A stretch of 24,325 bases of DNA from a virus (taxonomy: Duplodnaviria > Caudoviricetes), in IMG/VR virus record IMGVR_UViG_3300012352_000383, positions 1 to 24,325 of that record; one strand, 5' to 3'. Below the pieces are notes generated by a model. It saw only the letters and a list, made by a program, of their open reading frames with translations, searched no databases and was not told where the DNA came from. How positions within the stretch are numbered: position 1 is the first letter of the stretch; every line of letters begins with the position of its first letter. A program made the position numbers and the translations under genes. Positions 8,221 through 17,692 of the stretch are shown here, piece by piece.

Positions 8221-10362
8221 ATGGAAATGCAAGCAACTGACCTTTCAGCTCGTCTGCTAGCAACTGAGAACTTAACAGTTGTTCGTTCAAACGTTCCTAC
8301 TGCATCGTTTGACATTAAATCACGTGTACTTACTCTTCCAATGTGGAAAGAGATGACCCCAGAAATCGAAGATATGCTCGTGGGTCACGAAGTTGGTCAC
8401 GCTCTTTATACCTTGGATAAGTACATCAAACCAATCCAAGATAATCCAAAACTTAAATCTTATATGAACATTCTCGAAGATGTTCGTATTGAGAAACTTA
8501 TCAAACGCAAGTATCCTGGTCTGCGTAAACGCATGAATGAGGGATACAAACAACTAAACGATAAAGACTTCTTTGGTATTTCCAAAGTTCCTTCGCTTCA
8601 AGCACTTAACTTGATTGACCGCATCAACTTGTATTTCAAAGCAGGTTTTCAATGTGGTGTTACTTTCTCGGCTGATGAAAAAGAATTCGTCAACCGTGCT
8701 GAACGCACTGAAACTATCGATGAGGTTATTACCCTTGCCCAAGATATCTACACTTATGCTAAAGAGCAAGCAGAGAAACGCAAGCAACAGCGTATTGATG
8801 CAGGTGAAGATGTTAGTGACGAAGAAGATGAAGATCCTATTTACACTGACTTAGACCTTGACCTTGACGGTGATGAATGGGAAGAACAAGACGCAGAAGA
8901 AACTGATGAATCAGAAAAATCTGCAACTGGTAAAGGTGCAGGCTCTGAAGAAACTGAAGATGAACTTGAGTCTGTTACTGAACGTGCATTCCAACAACGT
9001 CTTGAAGATTTGGCTGATCAAACTACTGTATATCAGTATCATAAAATCGAATCACTTCCTTACGATGTTATTGTTGGATACAAAAAAGTTTTGCAAGACT
9101 TGAGTTTTGACTTCAATGATCACCTTAGCACTTACTACACCAGTCGTGTTTATGGTACTTTGTCTGAAGACGAATATAATCGTTCTGTTCTAGAAAAAGT
9201 TTCTAAATTCAAATCTGACTCTTTGAGTTCAGTTAACTACTTGATCAAAGAATTTGAAATGAAGAAGTCTGCTCAACTGTATAAGCGTGCTCAGGTTTCT
9301 AAGATTGGTTCTTTAGATATGCGTAAAGTATATGCTTACCAATTACAAGACGATTTGTTTAAGCGTGTAACTACTATTCCACAGGGTAAAAACCATGGAA
9401 TGGTTATGTTGATCGATTGGTCAGGTTCTATGTCTGATGTTATCATGGACACAATTAAACAGGTTATCAACCTTGCTATGTTCTGTAACAAGGCTCAGAT
9501 TCCTTATCGTGTGTTTGCTTTCACTAGTCAATACAACGATCGTCCAGACGAGTATGAAGCCTTGCGTGAGAAACGCAATGGTTATATGCGTCAACTTCGT
9601 GACCGTATTGCTGCGAACCCTCAAGATTCTGTTGTTGATGGTAGTGGTTTTAATCTGCTTGAATTGTTCAGCAACAAAATGTCAACTACTGAATTCAACA
9701 GTATGATTAAGAAGTTGCTTGACCCACGTGTATTCTGGCACAAAGGTTACGACCTTGGCGGTACACCATTGAATGAAGCATTGATTTGGGTTTACAATAA
9801 CATCGGCGATTATATGAAGAATAATCGTATTGAGAAAATGAACCTGATTACCCTTTCTGATGGTGCAGGTGGTAGCGTTGGTGCTTCTGGTGGTATCAGT
9901 CGTTATAGTTATGGTAACAAAATCAAACACTTAGTTCGTGACACTGTTACTAAGAAGACATATCCTTTTGATTATGACTCTACTCAACAATCTGAAACTC
10001 TGTTGAAGATGATTAAAGACCGTTACAATATTCGCACGATTGGTTTCTATATTTGCCCAAATCGTCGTCGCACTTTGGAATGTGCTTTGCGTGATAACTT
10101 GTATGATTACAAAGGTAATTCTAATTTGGTTATTGATGAAATGCGCAAGTCATTCCGTGATAATGGTTTCTATTCTATGCGTGGTACTGGTCGTGATGAT
10201 TTGTTTATTGTACCAGCTGAGAAGACTGCAATTAATGAAGGTGAGTTGGAAGTTTCCAGCGATATGTCTTCTCGTAAACTTGCCAACAGCCTTGGTAAGT
10301 TCTTGAATACGAAGAAAACTTCTCGTGTTTTATTGAGCCGTTTCATCAACTATGTGGCTTAA
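8221..10362 (+). CDS. Metallopeptidase-like (HExxH) plus VWA domain protein (CobT-like partner of MoxR ATPase)
   Basis: HEVGH, NILEDVRIE, an acidic linker, MIDAS motif DWSGS, GGTPL and LSDG. Confidence 0.85.
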   Translation: MEMQATDLSARLLATENLTVVRSNVPTASFDIKSRVLTLPMWKEMTPEIEDMLVGHEVGHALYTLDKYIKPIQDNPKLKSYMNILEDVRIEKLIKRKYPGLRKRMNEGYKQLNDKDFFGISKVPSLQALNLIDRINLYFKAGFQCGVTFSADEKEFVNRAERTETIDEVITLAQDIYTYAKEQAEKRKQQRIDAGEDVSDEEDEDPIYTDLDLDLDGDEWEEQDAEETDESEKSATGKGAGSEETEDELESVTERAFQQRLEDLADQTTVYQYHKIESLPYDVIVGYKKVLQDLSFDFNDHLSTYYTSRVYGTLSEDEYNRSVLEKVSKFKSDSLSSVNYLIKEFEMKKSAQLYKRAQVSKIGSLDMRKVYAYQLQDDLFKRVTTIPQGKNHGMVMLIDWSGSMSDVIMDTIKQVINLAMFCNKAQIPYRVFAFTSQYNDRPDEYEALREKRNGYMRQLRDRIAANPQDSVVDGSGFNLLELFSNKMSTTEFNSMIKKLLDPRVFWHKGYDLGGTPLNEALIWVYNNIGDYMKNNRIEKMNLITLSDGAGGSVGASGGISRYSYGNKIKHLVRDTVTKKTYPFDYDSTQQSETLLKMIKDRYNIRTIGFYICPNRRRTLECALRDNLYDYKGNSNLVIDEMRKSFRDNGFYSMRGTGRDDLFIVPAEKTAINEGELEVSSDMSSRKLANSLGKFLNTKKTSRVLLSRFINYVA

Positions 10363-10402
10363 ACCCTGTGGGAGCCTTGCTCCCAGGGCTGAAAAATAAT
10401 GC

Positions 10403-10431
10403 TTGACTTTTATTGGAAATTCAGGCATAAT
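10403..10431 (+). promoter_or_regulatory. Early sigma70-like promoter
   Basis: atgc-TTGACT-N17-CATAAT, followed by the same ttatagattgat as the 8002 promoter. Confidence 0.85.
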
Positions 10432-10476
10432 TCTATTATAGATTGATGATGTTGTACTTTTATTATGGAGAATGTG

Positions 10477-11619
10477 ATGAGTAAAAAAGCCGAGTTCCGT
10501 GAACAGTTCGATGCCAAACTGCAAGAAATGTTCCCCGATACCTTTACTGATGGTGTCGTATCACGTAAACAAATTGACGAAGTCCGTGCTGCCCTAGCCA
10601 CTAAATCGTACCCTGTGTGGCATATGGAGAACCGTGTAGGTCGTGGTTTGTATGCTATTTCTGGTGGTCAAAAATCTAATGCTGTTTTGAAGGAAGAACC
10701 TGTGCAATCGTTTGAAGTTGATTATACAAACACTGAATCTCTTATCCCTAAGAAAGATTCCAACTTTGTTCCATTCGGTAACTTTACCGATCTTGAGAAC
10801 ATTATCAAATCTCAAATCTTTTACCCTGCTTACATCAGTGGTCCAACTGGTAATGGTAAGTCAACTATGGTAGAACAGATTTGTGCCAAACATAAACGTC
10901 CTTTGATTCGTGTTAACCTTAACATGATGACTGACGAAGAACAACTTATCGGCTCTAAGACTTTGGAGAATGGTAACGTTGAAATTATTGAAGGACCAGT
11001 CCTTATCGCTATGCGCACTGGTACGACTCTATTGCTTGACGAGATTGATGCAGGTGCCGCAAACACTTTGCTTTGCTTGCAACCAATCCTTGAAGGTAAA
11101 CCTTACTATTTCAAGTTGAAGAACGAAATGATTATTCCTGCTAAGGGTTTCAACGTTATCGCAACTGCAAACACCAAAGGTAAAGGTTCAGACGATGGTC
11201 GTTATATTGGTACCAACATTCTGAACGAAGCATTCCTTGAGCGTTTTGCAGTGACGTTCAACCAAGAATATCCTTCAGCTAAGATTGAATCTAAGATCGT
11301 TCAAAACCTTATGACTTCATACGACTGCCTTGACGTTGATTTCGCTGAGAACCTAGTCAAGTGGGCTGATGCAATTCGTAAGACTTTTGACGATGGTGGT
11401 GTTGACGAAACGATTACAACTCGTCGTATGACCCATATCGTTCGTGCATATGCAATCTTCAAGAATCAGACTAAAGCAATTGAACTTTGCTGCAACCGAT
11501 TCGATACTGCAACGAAGACTGCATTTATCGACTTGTACGATAAGATTGCAAATCCGCAACCTGAAGTTGCAGTAGAACAGCCTGTAGAACCTAATCCTAC
11601 AGACGAAGTTCCGTTCTAA
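10477..11619 (+). CDS. MoxR/CobS-like AAA+ ATPase
   Basis: GPTGNGKS, LLLDEID, ATANTKGKGSDDGRY and NEAFLERF motifs. The start is likely ATG 10477 after GGAG. Confidence 0.9.
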   Translation: MSKKAEFREQFDAKLQEMFPDTFTDGVVSRKQIDEVRAALATKSYPVWHMENRVGRGLYAISGGQKSNAVLKEEPVQSFEVDYTNTESLIPKKDSNFVPFGNFTDLENIIKSQIFYPAYISGPTGNGKSTMVEQICAKHKRPLIRVNLNMMTDEEQLIGSKTLENGNVEIIEGPVLIAMRTGTTLLLDEIDAGAANTLLCLQPILEGKPYYFKLKNEMIIPAKGFNVIATANTKGKGSDDGRYIGTNILNEAFLERFAVTFNQEYPSAKIESKIVQNLMTSYDCLDVDFAENLVKWADAIRKTFDDGGVDETITTRRMTHIVRAYAIFKNQTKAIELCCNRFDTATKTAFIDLYDKIANPQPEVAVEQPVEPNPTDEVPF

Positions 11620-12550: not shown

Positions 12551-12607
12551 TTGAACTGCTAATGGGTATTCCTAGAGTACCCATTGTTGGTTTTGTTAGG
12601 AGATATT

Positions 12608-12907
12608 ATGACCGCTGATGGTAGAAAGTTTGATGGTGGTAAACTAGAATATGGATTGGTTCCACCTTTAGCATTAAAAGAAATGGTCAAAGTTCTCACG
12701 TTTGGTGCTCAAAAGTACGATCGTGATAACTGGCAAAAAGTTCCTGAATCCAAGCGTAGATATTTTGATGCAATGCAACGTCATGTATGGGCATGGAAAG
12801 AGGGAGAAGAAGTTGACCCCGAGTCTGGTATTCATCATCTAGCACACGCAATGTGTTGTTTGTTCTTTTTATATGAACATGATGTAAAATATTCTAAGGA
12901 TGTATAA
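12608..12907 (+). CDS. dATP/dGTP diphosphohydrolase-domain protein (DUF5664-like)
   Basis: GRKFDGGKLEYGLVP, TFGAQKYDRDNW and DPESGIHHLAHA motifs. Start at ATG 12608 after AGGAG. Confidence 0.85.
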   Translation: MTADGRKFDGGKLEYGLVPPLALKEMVKVLTFGAQKYDRDNWQKVPESKRRYFDAMQRHVWAWKEGEEVDPESGIHHLAHAMCCLFFLYEHDVKYSKDV

Positions 12908-13092: not shown

Positions 13093-13890
13093 ATGAAATC
13101 ATTTTTGAAAATCTCTGCTCTGGTTGCAGCAGTTACTCTGGCTACTGGTTGTACTCGCATTGAGACTGGTGAAGTTGGTGTACGTGTTGGATTTGACAAA
13201 CAGGTTAAACCAGGAGAACTGCTTCCTGGATCATTTAACCAAGTATTGATTGGTGATGTTTTGACATTCCCTGTTAAAGATGTTAATGTCAAATTGGAAG
13301 ACATGACACCTGTTGCCAAAGATAACAGCACAATGAAAGACTTTGACGCAGTTGTTATCTATAATATTAATCAAGCCCAAGTTGCTGAGTTGTATAGTCA
13401 AAAAAGCCAAGCGTTTCACGCTAAACATAATGGCGACATCTACCTGATGTACAACTACATTGTACAAGCAGCCCGCAATGCTATCTACAAAGAAGCACGC
13501 AAGTATGAAGCGTTGGATATGGCAGACAACCGTCAACAAATGGAGCAGGCTATTCGAGAGCAGATTCAAAAGAGTCTAGCTGAAGAAAAACTAGATGGTA
13601 GTTTGGTCGTTGGACAAGTCTTAATTCGTAACATTGTACCAGCCGATTCTGTTGTTGAAAGTGCCAATGCTTTAGTTCGTGCTAAGAATGAATTCAAACA
13701 GAAAGAAGTAGAAGTGCAGACTGCCAAGAAAGAAGCAGAACGTATGGCAGCACTGGCAAATAACTCTGCAAGTTCTATTGCGTTTATGAACGCTCAAGCT
13801 GCACTAAACATCTCTGAAGGTATTAAGAATGGTAAGGTTCAAACTATTGTTGTCCCTGCTAACTTTAATGCACTGATGATGCAGAAATAA
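13093..13890 (+). CDS. SPFH/band 7 (prohibitin-like) protein, possible lipoprotein
   Basis: Signal-like N-terminus ending LATGC, followed by RIETGEVGV, and a C-terminal coiled coil (EVQTAKKEAERM). Confidence 0.85.
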   Translation: MKSFLKISALVAAVTLATGCTRIETGEVGVRVGFDKQVKPGELLPGSFNQVLIGDVLTFPVKDVNVKLEDMTPVAKDNSTMKDFDAVVIYNINQAQVAELYSQKSQAFHAKHNGDIYLMYNYIVQAARNAIYKEARKYEALDMADNRQQMEQAIREQIQKSLAEEKLDGSLVVGQVLIRNIVPADSVVESANALVRAKNEFKQKEVEVQTAKKEAERMAALANNSASSIAFMNAQAALNISEGIKNGKVQTIVVPANFNALMMQK

Positions 13891-15988: not shown

Positions 15989-16352
15989 TTTTATTAATGC
16001 CATCAATCAGACAAAAGAAAACCTATTTGTCGATCCGCAAGCAGCAAAGGATTATTCCCCTTTCCTAGTAAATAGGGGACTGTCGTATTTCCACGACACA
16101 GTTGTTCAAGCGAATACTATGAATCAGTATGCTTCTATTCCAAAAGAGTGGCAGTTTACATTTTTACTAAATAGTATTGCCAAGAAGAAAAGATTCAGCA
16201 AGTGGGCAAAAGCCGACAAAGCTACAGACTCTTTGCTTCTGGTTCAGGAATATTTCGGGTATTCCAGTGAAAAAGCTAAGGAAGCATTACGCATCCTTAC
16301 AGATGAACAATTGAAATGTATAGAACAAAAATTAAATAAAGGTGGAAAATAA
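15975..16352 (+). CDS. gp62: Clamp loader small subunit gp62
   Basis: MSPFDFINAINQTK, YSPFLVNRGLS, KKRFSKW and YFGYSSEKA motifs. Start at ATG 15975. Confidence 0.93.
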   Translation: MSPFDFINAINQTKENLFVDPQAAKDYSPFLVNRGLSYFHDTVVQANTMNQYASIPKEWQFTFLLNSIAKKKRFSKWAKADKATDSLLLVQEYFGYSSEKAKEALRILTDEQLKCIEQKLNKGGK

Positions 16353-16786
16353 TGACAGTAGAAATGATTTACTATGATTGGACACCCGATTCTATGCTAG
16401 AGGTTACTCTTGCTGAACCAGACAACTTCTTGAAGGTTCGTGAGACTCTAACACGTATCGGCATCGCATCTAAAAAAGATAATACGTTGTACCAATCTTG
16501 CCATATCCTACATAAACAGGGTAGGTATTTTATCGTTCATTTCAAAGAACTCTTTGCATTGGATGGTAAAGACTCGAATATCACTTCAGGTGATATTGAG
16601 CGTCGTAATGCTATCGCTGGTTTGCTTCAGGACTGGGATCTATTAAAAATAGTGAACGCCAGTAAAGCAGAACAGAAAGCATCATTGAGCCAGATTAAAG
16701 TTGTTTCTTTCAAAGAAAAGAATGACTGGAATTTGGTTGCAAAATATAATATTGGTAAAAAAGTTCGTCCAAGCGAGCAAAACTGA
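16352..16786 (+). CDS. regA: Translational repressor RegA
   Basis: FLKVRETLTRIGIAS, LYQSCHILHKQGRYFIVHFKELF and KYNIG motifs. Confidence 0.97.
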   Translation: MTVEMIYYDWTPDSMLEVTLAEPDNFLKVRETLTRIGIASKKDNTLYQSCHILHKQGRYFIVHFKELFALDGKDSNITSGDIERRNAIAGLLQDWDLLKIVNASKAEQKASLSQIKVVSFKEKNDWNLVAKYNIGKKVRPSEQN

Positions 16787-16794
16787 TATAAATA
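16787..16794 (+). promoter_or_regulatory. T4-type late promoter upstream of pqqA/hsp20
   Basis: Exact TATAAATA starting at the base after the regA stop. Confidence 0.75.
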
Positions 16795-16893
16795 AAAATA
16801 GAATTATATACAATTAATAATTTCCCTTAGATGCTTTTTCGCCATATGGGACTAAGTAATATACCCGAATCGGGTTTTCTTAAGGAGATTATT

Positions 16894-16965
16894 ATGTGGA
16901 CTAAACCAACTGCTACTGAAATGCGTTTTGGCTTTGAAGTTACAATGTATGTAATGAACAAATAG
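16894..16965 (+). CDS. pqqA: Pyrroloquinoline quinone precursor peptide PqqA (23 aa), not in ORF track
   Basis: TAAGGAG SD at 16881-87. Translation is MWTKPTATEMRFGFEVTMYVMNK*, with the MWxKP start and RFGFEVTMY including the Glu15-x3-Tyr19 pair. Confidence 0.95.
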   Translation: MWTKPTATEMRFGFEVTMYVMNK

Positions 16966-17160
16966 CATCCCTCGGGATGGGAACCGTGATGGTGGTGATA
17001 ACGGTATATAAAACCACCAACTAATTTAAGAATTCACCTTAGGACCGCTAAGTACGAATCGCATAAAGCTGGTAGTGCGTTAAGCTACCGCTGGAACCAG
17101 TAACCAGCATTTTAAATATGGCTCCCTTTGTTCGCTTCGGGTTCACTTGGGAGTTTTTCG
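16966..17160 (+). ncRNA. Candidate structured RNA between pqqA and hsp20
   Basis: Successive stems: catcc/ggatg; accgt/acggt with pseudoknot tggtggt/accacca; cttag/ctaag; ggtag/ctacc; gctgg/ccagc; ctccc/gggag. Confidence 0.55.
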
Positions 17161-17179
17161 CTTAATAAAGGAGAAACAC

Positions 17180-17692
17180 ATGACAAGCAAACAATTCATC
17201 CCTTCATTTTTTAGTCAAGATGTATTCAAGGACTTTGACAAGTTCTTCGTTGGTTTCGATGATCAATTCACAAAGATGCAGAAACTACACGATGACATCA
17301 CTAAAAACATCCCTAACTATCCTCCATACAATATCCGTAAGATTGATGACACTCACTATGTTATCGAGATGGCAGTTGCTGGCTTTGGTCAGAACGAAAT
17401 TGACATCGAGATCGATGGTGGTAAGTTAGTCGTTAAGGGTAATGTTCAGTCTACTGAGCAAGAGGAAGACTTCTTGTTTAAGGGTATTGCTGCACGTGCT
17501 TTCACTCGTACTTTCGCACTTAACGACCAAGTGGAAGTTAAAGATGCTGAGATTTTCAATGGTATGTTAAAGATCGCTCTTGAGCGTCTTATCCCAGAAG
17601 AAAAGAAAGCAAAGAAAGTTCCTGTGAAGTCAGGTAAAGGAAAGCAATTACTTCAGGAGAATGAATATGACAAAGCTGCTGAAAGGTTGTAA
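17180..17692 (+). CDS. hsp20: Small heat shock protein Hsp20 (IbpA-like)
   Basis: NYPPYNI, IEMAVAGF, GIAARAFTRTFAL and NGMLKIALERLIPEEKK motifs. Start at ATG 17180 after AAGGAG. Confidence 0.95.
   Translation: MTSKQFIPSFFSQDVFKDFDKFFVGFDDQFTKMQKLHDDITKNIPNYPPYNIRKIDDTHYVIEMAVAGFGQNEIDIEIDGGKLVVKGNVQSTEQEEDFLFKGIAARAFTRTFALNDQVEVKDAEIFNGMLKIALERLIPEEKKAKKVPVKSGKGKQLLQENEYDKAAERL

What the first reader, a model, noticed from the sequence alone, without database searches (positions are those of the whole stretch)
16787..16965. Phage-encoded PQQ precursor gene pqqA under a T4 late promoter, hidden between regA and hsp20
Seen: a strong SD (TAAGGAG) and a 23-codon ORF, MWTKPTATEMRFGFEVTMYVMNK, too short for the ORF track. 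It lies 100 nt after an exact TATAAATA. Known: PqqA is the ribosomal peptide whose Glu and Tyr (ExxxY, here E15/Y19) are cross-linked by PqqE/PqqD and matured by PqqB/C into PQQ, the cofactor of methanol dehydrogenases MxaF/XoxF. One peptide is consumed per PQQ. No pqqB-E genes are in this window. Inference: the phage supplies only the stoichiometric substrate to the host pathway, sustaining methanol oxidation or redox protection late in infection. It could alternatively act as a decoy. I cannot establish how far phage pqqA has already been described.
Basis: partly seen in the sequence, partly recalled or inferred. Interest (0 to 1): 0.92.

Follow-up and report, generated by a model that had tools for sequence, protein, structure and literature searches.

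The report
Phage pqqA with host control box
A T4-like freshwater phage carries a real 23-codon copy of pqqA, the small peptide that methanol-eating bacteria use up to make the cofactor PQQ; such phage copies were reported in 2020 and are common, but this one sits in a small inserted cassette with the host's own pqqA control palindrome placed at a fixed distance from a likely phage late promoter, so a host regulator may switch it on.

Summary
Confirmed: ORF 16894-16965 is PqqA (TIGR02107 39.3 bits, cut-off 20; PF08042 40.7, cut-off 21.1), between regA and hsp20 of a T4-like phage; independent assemblies support both junctions. Phage pqqA is not new: Coutinho 2020 reported it in a T4-like Methylophilaceae virus, and this scan noted it before in at least 41 other genomes. 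It is in 9 GenBank methylotroph-phage records (unannotated where opened) and an estimated 2,300 IMG/VR stretches, with no pqqB beside it (0 of 80).

The TATAAATA is real but belongs to the backbone: the closest relative has it without pqqA. The ~170-bp inserted cassette brings its own control: a 17-bp palindrome that precedes 21 of 24 pqqA copies in five host genomes, plus pqqB and a PqqU-like importer in Methylopumilus. In phages it lies 22 nt before a TAA(A/G)TA late-type element (16 of 64 box-bearing clusters) or 21-22 nt before a sigma70-type -10, matching the hosts' promoter-proximal site. Best reading: the phage supplies only the consumed substrate, likely under host-regulator control. 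Expression and function are untested. Earlier scan notes also saw the box.

The parts
16352..16786 (+). regA translational repressor (backbone gene on the left)
   Evidence: phrog_242 E 6.5e-61; PF01818
16787..16794 (+). exact T4 late-promoter consensus TATAAATA; part of the backbone, not specific to pqqA
   Evidence: same place in pqqA-less L051
16795..16967 (+). approximate limits of the inserted pqqA cassette (~170 bp)
   Evidence: alignment with L051 and L008, which run from the regA end into the shared downstream element
16814..16830 (.). degenerate copy of the host pqq palindrome (host consensus CTMATGA-WWW-TCATKAG); predicted binding site of an unidentified host regulator
   Evidence: top-scoring site of the whole window under a matrix trained on host DNA only, 7.7-8.3 bits, weak; next best 6.3; identical 17 of 17 in close relative L622 while the following 22-nt spacer differs
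16851..16858 (+). second late-type element ACTAAGTA (TAAGTA 22 nt after the box); predicted start of transcription about 16864
   Evidence: TAAGTA invariant in 9 of 9 aligned leaders; offset 22 in an independent set; start site inferred, not mapped
16863..16875 (+). 5-bp hairpin at the predicted 5' end of the mRNA (likely stabilising; flagged terminator-like, but the U-run is not kept in relatives)
   Evidence: 16 of 20 clusters have a stem starting at the predicted 5' end with unrelated sequences, z <= -2 in only 8 of 20
16881..16887 (+). Shine-Dalgarno TAAGGAG
   Evidence: SD-like motif in 15 of 15 regA-locus, 7 of 7 GenBank and 113 of 119 IMG/VR copies
16894..16965 (+). pqqA, 23-aa PQQ precursor peptide with E15 and Y19
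   Evidence: TIGR02107 and PF08042 above cut-off; pN/pS 0.19
16968..17179 (+). non-coding backbone region and hsp20 leader, conserved in relatives with or without pqqA; no U-tailed terminator on the + strand, so pqqA is probably co-transcribed with hsp20
   Evidence: no Rfam match; fold z -1.04
17180..17692 (+). hsp20 small heat-shock protein (backbone gene on the right)
   Evidence: phrog_432; PF00011
4660..5193 (+). gp55 late sigma factor that would read the late-type elements
   Evidence: phrog_234 E 3e-63

Best explanation
The gene is a genuine, stand-alone pqqA in a small cassette inserted between regA and hsp20 of a T4-like phage, and it likely serves as an auxiliary metabolic gene that supplies extra precursor peptide to the PQQ pathway of a probable Methylophilaceae host. 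Shown: family membership, phage context, purifying selection, absence of maturation genes nearby, and a host-type palindrome at a fixed spacing from a late-type element. Inferred: during infection the peptide is made from a transcript starting near 16864, with added read-through from TATAAATA and regA. Host PqqD/E/B/C and proteases, which are catalytic and already present, turn one peptide into one PQQ, and this keeps XoxF/MxaF methanol oxidation supplied with cofactor after host transcription falls. Inferred with less confidence: an unidentified host regulator of pqqA, pqqB and pqqU binds the box at about -42 and activates the phage promoter, so that output follows the host's PQQ demand.
For: HMM hits. 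15 of 80 RegA-related loci carry pqqA just after regA, and all 22 tblastn hits in related and GenBank loci keep Glu-X3-Tyr. pN/pS is 0.19 over 13 distinct regA-locus sequences and 0.20 over 7 GenBank ones. 9 records of cultured methylotroph phages of different groups carry it. PqqB is beside 0 of 80 viral loci but 20 of 80 host loci. PqqB, PqqC and XoxF are absent from all methylotroph phage records in GenBank. No PqqE above cut-off, PqqC or XoxF-type gene was found in 5 large pqqA-bearing contigs, 1 of them complete. Hosts themselves amplify pqqA alone: 3-12 copies against one pqqB-G set (PMC4109929); 24 copies in 5 genomes. The VMNK tail is carried by 67 host loci, 59 labelled Methylophilaceae or one of its genera. 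The nearest host genes differ at 4 of 66 nt. Box: 95 of 119 host upstreams; 9 of 14 pqqA-bearing against 0 of 32 pqqA-less regA-hsp20 intervals; 103 of 135 new viral upstreams picked without regard to the box, with TAARTA at offset 22 in 46, and further groups at 33, 44-45 and 55. Hosts have their -10 at offset 44-45 (50 of 92 clusters) and a second weak site 23 bp downstream of the first.
Against: No RNA evidence for this copy: two RNA runs cover hsp20 pieces or other organisms' pqqA only, and a third laid nothing. Most close relatives lack pqqA at this slot (32 of 46 intervals), so it is dispensable or their hosts differ. The window's own box is weak (7.7 bits, below the 8-bit line used). 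The box was not found before xoxF in Methylopumilus, nor before pqqA in MEP401 and MEP402. TAAGTA as a late promoter is only moderately supported: sense to antisense 46:14, against 153:11 for TAAATA; no genome-wide enrichment; an SD+ATG follows 24% of sites, against 2-19% for control heptamers. The viral set was selected for TAARTA, and relatives are not independent. That pqqA limits PQQ flux within a short infection is not shown.
Confidence: 0.65

Rival explanations
1. The extra PQQ matters less as a dehydrogenase cofactor than as a small molecule. It may close a PqqU-like outer-membrane receptor against superinfection or loss of progeny, or act as a redox protectant.
For: PQQ blocks a PqqU-targeting E. 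coli phage (PMC12124388 passages). Methylopumilus encodes a PqqU-like receptor just after pqqBCDE (NF041535 487 bits, below its 1200 cut-off; PDB YncD/PqqU E 5e-114) with a 14.5-bit box upstream. Relatives put AhpC- and rubredoxin-like ORFs in the same slot (phrog_2281; rubredoxin label recalled).
Against: pqqA occurs in unrelated myo-, sipho- and podo-type phages, which would all have to use the same receptor. No receptor is known for these phages from my calls.
Confidence: 0.12
2. Expression in this genome is plain late read-through from TATAAATA and regA; the box is a decaying relic of capture from the host.
For: The exact consensus lies 99 nt upstream and gp55 is encoded. The window's box scores only 7.7 bits, against 14-23 in relatives.
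Against: The box is still the best site in 24 kb. It is identical in L622 while the spacer has changed. Its spacing to TAAGTA is exactly the conserved 22 nt, which hosts do not have (1 of 95 at offsets 21-23).
Confidence: 0.1
3. Decoy: the peptide ties up host PqqD/PqqE, or the many replicated boxes titrate the host regulator, which lowers or redirects PQQ synthesis.
For: A replicating phage makes many operator copies (inference). A few phage copies are divergent around the core (L531, L660).
Against: This peptide differs from a common host peptide at 1 residue and keeps Glu and Tyr, as expected of a substrate. Only one box occurs in the window. A sponge would not need a fixed spacing to a promoter element.
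Confidence: 0.08
4. Near-neutral passenger, picked up repeatedly by recombination with the multi-copy host gene.
For: Patchy on the RegA tree: 9 changes, at least 2 forced by strong branches. The window's gene is closer to host genes (4 differences) than to regA-locus phage genes (8 or more).
Against: pN/pS about 0.2, intact SD, a re-spaced promoter, and presence in all 9 methylotroph phage records hit. No other host pqqA neighbour comes along, bar 2 of 80 loci with generic matches.
Confidence: 0.05

Closest known systems
Viral PqqA of Lake Baikal population VP_266 (Coutinho et al. 2020, PMC7678222; passages read)
   Same: PqqA in a T4-like freshwater virus assigned to Methylophilaceae, read as an auxiliary gene boosting methanol oxidation.
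   Different: In the passages read, that paper reports one population, also claims a viral methanol dehydrogenase, and links viral radical-SAM proteins to PQQ synthesis. I found no XoxF-type gene or above-cut-off PqqE in the pqqA phages tested. The passages say nothing on spread, selection or promoter.
Virus-encoded pqqA/pqqD/pqqE in reservoir sediments (PMC13188868; passages read)
   Same: pqqA listed as a viral auxiliary gene.
   Different: Read there as phosphate solubilisation; pqqA was not among the genes shown active; supplementary tables not seen.
Orphan chromosomal pqqA copies of Methylophilaceae (PMC4109929)
   Same: Near-identical peptide, stand-alone gene, same upstream palindrome.
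   Different: Hosts have a strong distal site near -65 plus a weak proximal site and a sigma70-type -10. Phages mostly put the strong site in the proximal position, and T4-like ones pair it with a late-type element.
Cyanomyovirus psbA with sigma70 and gp55 elements (PMC5931967 passages); host-regulator boxes on cyanophage phosphate and nitrogen genes (Pho and NtcA boxes, recalled)
   Same: Repeatedly acquired host metabolic gene in a T4-like phage whose upstream region ties it to host or late transcription; supplies a rapidly used-up component.
   Different: The product here is a peptide substrate, not an enzyme subunit. The regulator is unidentified. The box appears phased to a late-type element rather than only to a host promoter.

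Membership tests
PqqA (TIGR02107 / PF08042) | Score above curated cut-offs | tested here: met
   39.3 against 20; 40.7 against 21.1
PqqA (TIGR02107 / PF08042) | Glu-X3-Tyr core in a 23-24-aa ribosomal peptide with SD | tested here: met
   E15 and Y19, SD 16881-16887
PqqA (TIGR02107 / PF08042) | Cross-linked by PqqD/PqqE and matured to PQQ | not testable with these tools
   needs an assay; the peptide is 1 residue from a common host peptide
Complete pqq biosynthetic cluster | pqqB-E next to pqqA | tested here: not met
   none in the window; 0 of 80 viral flanks have pqqB; the rest of this genome is not held
Phage auxiliary metabolic gene | Host metabolic homolog flanked by viral genes on both sides, not an assembly chimera | tested here: met
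   regA and hsp20 within T4 core genes; junctions supported by other samples; synteny in 15 relatives
Phage auxiliary metabolic gene | Purifying selection | tested here: met
   pN/pS 0.19-0.20, uncorrected proportions
Phage auxiliary metabolic gene | Expressed during infection | tested here: inconclusive
   only assembled RNA contigs available; none carries this copy
Phage auxiliary metabolic gene | Alters host flux or burst size | not testable with these tools
   experiment needed
T4 late promoter (gp55) | TATAAATA on the coding strand, and gp55 encoded | tested here: met
T4 late promoter (gp55) | TATAAATA is the promoter specific to pqqA | tested here: not met
   present without pqqA in L051; 1 of 15 related pqqA loci has it within 150 nt
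T4 late promoter (gp55) | TAAGTA variant works as a late promoter | tested here: inconclusive
   strand bias 46:14; no genome-wide enrichment; weak link to gene starts
Fur box | Best Fur-consensus matches coincide with the palindrome sites | tested here: not met
   9 sites within 3 mismatches of the recalled consensus in 5 host genomes, none at a pqqA position
LysR-type operator | T-N11-A core with strong distal and weak proximal sites (recalled) | tested here: inconclusive
   two-site layout is present in hosts, but the invariant pair is T-N13-A; binding protein unknown

The most novel reading that the evidence does not exclude
T4-like methylotroph phages have built a hybrid promoter in which a host PQQ-homeostasis regulator, bound at about -42, controls the phage's own gp55 late polymerase. 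The unnamed palindrome marks an undescribed regulon (pqqA, pqqB-E, a pqqU-like importer). pqqA with this box would then be a near-universal, overlooked marker gene of methylotroph phages that tunes cofactor supply to the host's metabolic state.
Probability: 0.3. Interest if true: 0.75.

Novelty: new member of a known kind. Interest (0 to 1): 0.42.

Why it matters
If the reading holds, a 72-bp gene lets unrelated phages support the first step of methanol oxidation by topping up the one component of the PQQ pathway that is consumed. It is missed by gene callers: none of the 7 GenBank regions opened annotates it, and the papers on Melnitz, MEP301 and MEP401/402 do not mention it in their main text. 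It also offers a host-prediction marker for methylotroph phages. The palindrome gives a direct handle on how PQQ synthesis is regulated in Methylophilaceae, for which my searches found no described site. Its fixed spacing makes host-factor control of a T4-type late promoter testable in cultured phage-host pairs such as Melnitz.

Tried and rejected
Whole-genome scan for pqqB-E, xoxF and mxaF: not possible, since the held genome is the window; proxies were used instead. (PqqB against 5 viral contigs, 0 hits) is weak, because 4 are fragments and 2 are not known pqqA carriers. (PqqC, 0 of 5) had no positive control. PHROGs has no PqqA family hit. Rfam: 0 matches in the window. Reverse search for box plus TAARTA across IMG/VR: 0 of 120 sampled matches had pqqA downstream and the spacer was flat; the pattern is too loose for AT-rich viral DNA, so it is no support and shows the box is not diagnostic alone. 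Loose box pattern in 5 hosts: 106 sites against 33 control, but 11 of the 16 extra Methylopumilus sites lay inside ORFs, so a broad regulon is not shown. Genome-wide counts of MTAAGTA were not enriched. Fur reading rejected. The 44-aa start was rejected (no SD there; relatives are 23-25 aa). Terminator reading of the 16863-16875 hairpin was judged unlikely (U-run not conserved). RNA runs X13, X15 and X17 gave no piece of this pqqA; contigs cannot show absence. Exact-sequence look-up gave no names. One search (an arbitrary 60-base stretch of L583) gave nothing and bears on nothing. Papers: two searches for a described pqq operator or regulator site returned 0 papers; PMC7736144 is not held; PMC12361551, PMC7029224, PMC11118758 and PMC5120137 passages added nothing on phage pqqA. 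No structure or complex prediction was run: the peptide is under 30 residues. Core-residue conservation in the pattern-selected sets is circular and was not used as evidence.

Full report
1. Observation. The window is a 24,325-nt fragment of a T4-like phage: gp23, tail tube, uvsY, a helicase, gp55, SbcD- and SbcC-like nuclease subunits, sliding clamp, clamp loaders, regA, hsp20 and ligase. No more of the genome is held. TATAAATA lies at 16787-16794, TAAGGAG at 16881-16887, and the ORF at 16894-16965 gives MWTKPTATEMRFGFEVTMYVMNK. It passes TIGR02107 (39.3 bits, cut-off 20) and PF08042 (40.7, cut-off 21.1). TATAAATA occurs 3 times in the window against 1.63 expected. Contigs of three runs from one study span regA to 16939 and about 16930 into hsp20, and a run from a second study spans 16920-17338 without differences, so the gene is not an assembly chimera. 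No single contig spans the whole stretch; they break inside pqqA, where summed depth rises to 845 against 15 for the phage.

2. Spread. tblastn against 50,697 GenBank phage records gave 12 records: Venkman, MEP301, P19250A, MEP401, MEP402, four Melnitz records, one Manatee Spring podovirus, and two 'Acinetobacter phage MD-2021a' contigs. Those two also carry pqqB and pqqC, and sister contigs carry gcd, so they are probably host DNA. Of 7 regions opened, none annotates pqqA: 5 have no feature there and 2 have an opposite-strand hypothetical. Other methylotroph phage names exist in the taxonomy, and I do not know whether they are in the collection, so universality is not shown. A pattern for residues 10-19 matched an estimated 2,300 IMG/VR stretches (120 sampled) and 1,700 GTDB stretches (126 sampled). 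Of the 80 viral loci with flanks, 77 have a PHROG hit among the 150 ORFs scanned, none has pqqB (against 20 of 80 host loci), and 2 have a generic match to a host neighbour. Their flanks range from T4 core genes to RecE/Sak modules, terminases and capsids of small phages.

3. This locus. Of the 80 best RegA relatives, 15 have pqqA just downstream. Of 46 intervals with both regA and hsp20, window included, 14 have it. On a RegA tree of 72 rows (rows with short matches or under 700 nt downstream left out) the trait needs 9 changes, 2 forced by strong branches. The slot holds other small ORFs in relatives. The nearest relatives, L051 (97%, partial) and L008 (93%), lack pqqA. L051 has TATAAATA at the same place and runs straight into the element that follows pqqA in the window, so the cassette is an insertion of about 170 bp and TATAAATA is backbone. 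pN/pS is 0.127/0.669 = 0.19 for 13 distinct regA-locus sequences and 0.20 for 7 GenBank ones; these are uncorrected proportions with pS near saturation. The window gene differs at 4 of 66 nt from three host genes (two Methylophilus, one Methylotenera) and at 8 or more from regA-locus phage genes, in line with repeated capture or exchange. Its VMNK tail is shared by 67 host loci: 59 labelled Methylophilaceae or a member genus, 6 unresolved and 2 from one Acidovorax MAG. The host is therefore likely a member of Methylophilaceae.

4. The control box. Leaders of related phage genes share a 17-bp palindrome. Rebuilt de novo from host DNA alone, it has the consensus CTMATGA-WWW-TCATKAG and scores 10 bits or more in 95 of 119 host upstreams, 48 of 112 IMG/VR, 5 of 7 GenBank and 9 of 14 regA-locus upstreams; shuffles reach that in under 0.5% (4% for the GenBank set). 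It is absent from all 32 pqqA-less intervals (best 4.8 bits); relatedness inflates the Fisher p of 2e-6. In the window the best site in 24 kb is 16814-16830, but it is weak at 7.7 bits (next 6.3). L622 keeps it letter for letter while the spacer changes. In five Methylophilaceae genomes a strict pattern found 14 sites and 0 control sites: 10 before pqqA, 1 before pqqB, 2 at a YHS-pentapeptide/glycine-zipper locus and 1 inside a coding region. Of their 24 pqqA copies, 21 have the box (some of these copies were in the training set). In Methylopumilus it also precedes a PqqU-like receptor after pqqBCDE, but not xoxF. Fur-consensus matches fall elsewhere. The binding protein is unknown, and two literature searches found no description.

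5. Spacing. In hosts a sigma70-type -10 lies 44-45 nt after the box (50 of 92 clusters), with a weak second copy of the palindrome at offsets 6-22. In phages the strong box sits one period closer: a sigma70-type -10 at 21-22 (23 of 64 box-bearing clusters) or TAA(A/G)TA at 22 (16 of 64). The test set was picked by TAARTA, SD and gene start, not by the box. Of 242 matches 226 were pqqA; of 135 new distinct upstreams 103 had the box, with TAARTA at offset 22 in 46, 33 in 13, 44-45 in 8 and 55 in 8. After clustering only the peak at 22 is strong (16 clusters; 3, 6 and 1 for the others), and offsets 9 and 13 come from one small-phage family that has a -10 at 21. With T at -7 in both promoter types (recalled geometry), the start is near 16864 and the box centre near -42, the position of class II activators such as CRP and FNR (recalled). 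A stem begins at that predicted 5' end in 16 of 20 clusters with unrelated sequences, though only 8 reach z of -2. That TAAGTA is read by gp55 is inferred and only moderately supported. A protein at -42 could also block the late promoter, so the sign is open.

6. Mechanism. Established knowledge (recalled; partly in passages of PMC7678222, PMC9851590 and PMC12124388): PqqE with PqqD cross-links Glu and Tyr of PqqA, and further enzymes release PQQ, one peptide per cofactor. Methylophilaceae carry 3-12 pqqA copies but one pqqB-G set (PMC4109929), and xoxF was often the top transcript in an OM43 strain (PMC5120137). The phage copies the host's own solution: add substrate, reuse enzymes. Proxies found no maturation or dehydrogenase genes in pqqA phages: none for PqqB, PqqC or XoxF in GenBank methylotroph phage records, no XoxF-type gene in Melnitz, and only below-cut-off radical-SAM matches in 2 of 5 large contigs. 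I give substrate supply 0.65, receptor masking or redox use 0.12, box irrelevant here 0.10, decoy 0.08 and passenger 0.05. Expression is unshown: RNA contigs cover hsp20 pieces or other organisms' pqqA only.

7. Prior art. Coutinho et al. 2020 (PMC7678222; passages) report PqqA in T4-like population VP_266 assigned to Methylophilaceae, with the same metabolic reading. PMC13188868 (passages) lists viral pqqA. The Melnitz paper mentions PQQ only in its medium, and the MEP301 and MEP401/402 papers have no 'pqq' in their main text. Supplements were not opened and may list further cases. This scan's notes hold 43 such findings in at least 41 genomes, and some mention the control box; I had found the box before reading them.

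8. Verdict. Real gene and correct family, with a plausible but untested role; a new member of a known kind. The remaining interest lies in the host operator and its fixed spacing to a late-type element, which can be tested in cultured phage-host pairs. Interest 0.42.

Noticed in passing
window 16968-17179; L051, L008, L020, L028, L030, L040: Conserved non-coding hsp20 leader with several hairpin blocks, shared by relatives with or without pqqA; no Rfam match.
   Followed up: partly
L051:547-768 and many regA-hsp20 intervals: A recurrent ~74-aa viral ORF with no Pfam hit; the nearest named Atlas clusters are phasin- or PHB-related at 0.86-0.87, a lead only.
   Followed up: partly
L348:4620-6866 (G001): PqqU/YncD-like TonB-dependent receptor after pqqBCDE and an MFS transporter in Methylopumilus, with its own box.
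   Followed up: partly
L385 and L392 (G001): Intergenic 14-bit boxes before a rhodopsin gene and a cytochrome b561 gene; these may extend the regulon or be chance.
   Followed up: partly
L334, L346: A perfect box between a YHS-pentapeptide-repeat gene and a glycine-zipper gene in two Methylophilaceae genomes; role unknown.
   Followed up: partly
L531, L660, L664, L671, L712: Divergent phage PqqA variants: changes beside the Glu and Tyr, a changed leader, and a box-less group that seems to follow a coding region; candidates for other hosts or altered function.
   Followed up: no
GenBank CAKLQF020000010.1, CAKLQH020000055.1: Records named 'Acinetobacter phage MD-2021a' carry pqqA, pqqB and pqqC, and sister contigs carry gcd; probably bacterial DNA filed as phage.
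   Followed up: partly
window 16890-16965 in runs X1-X3, X6: Summed depth over pqqA is far above the phage's (845 against 15 in X1), and contigs break inside the gene, so assemblies may undercount pqqA contexts.
   Followed up: partly
window 12584-12907; 8221-11619; 13093-13890: A dATP/dGTP pyrophosphohydrolase-like gene (phrog_801), a peptidase/porphyrin-biosynthesis (CobT/CobS-like, recalled) pair and a lipoprotein (phrog_200) in the replication region.
   Followed up: no
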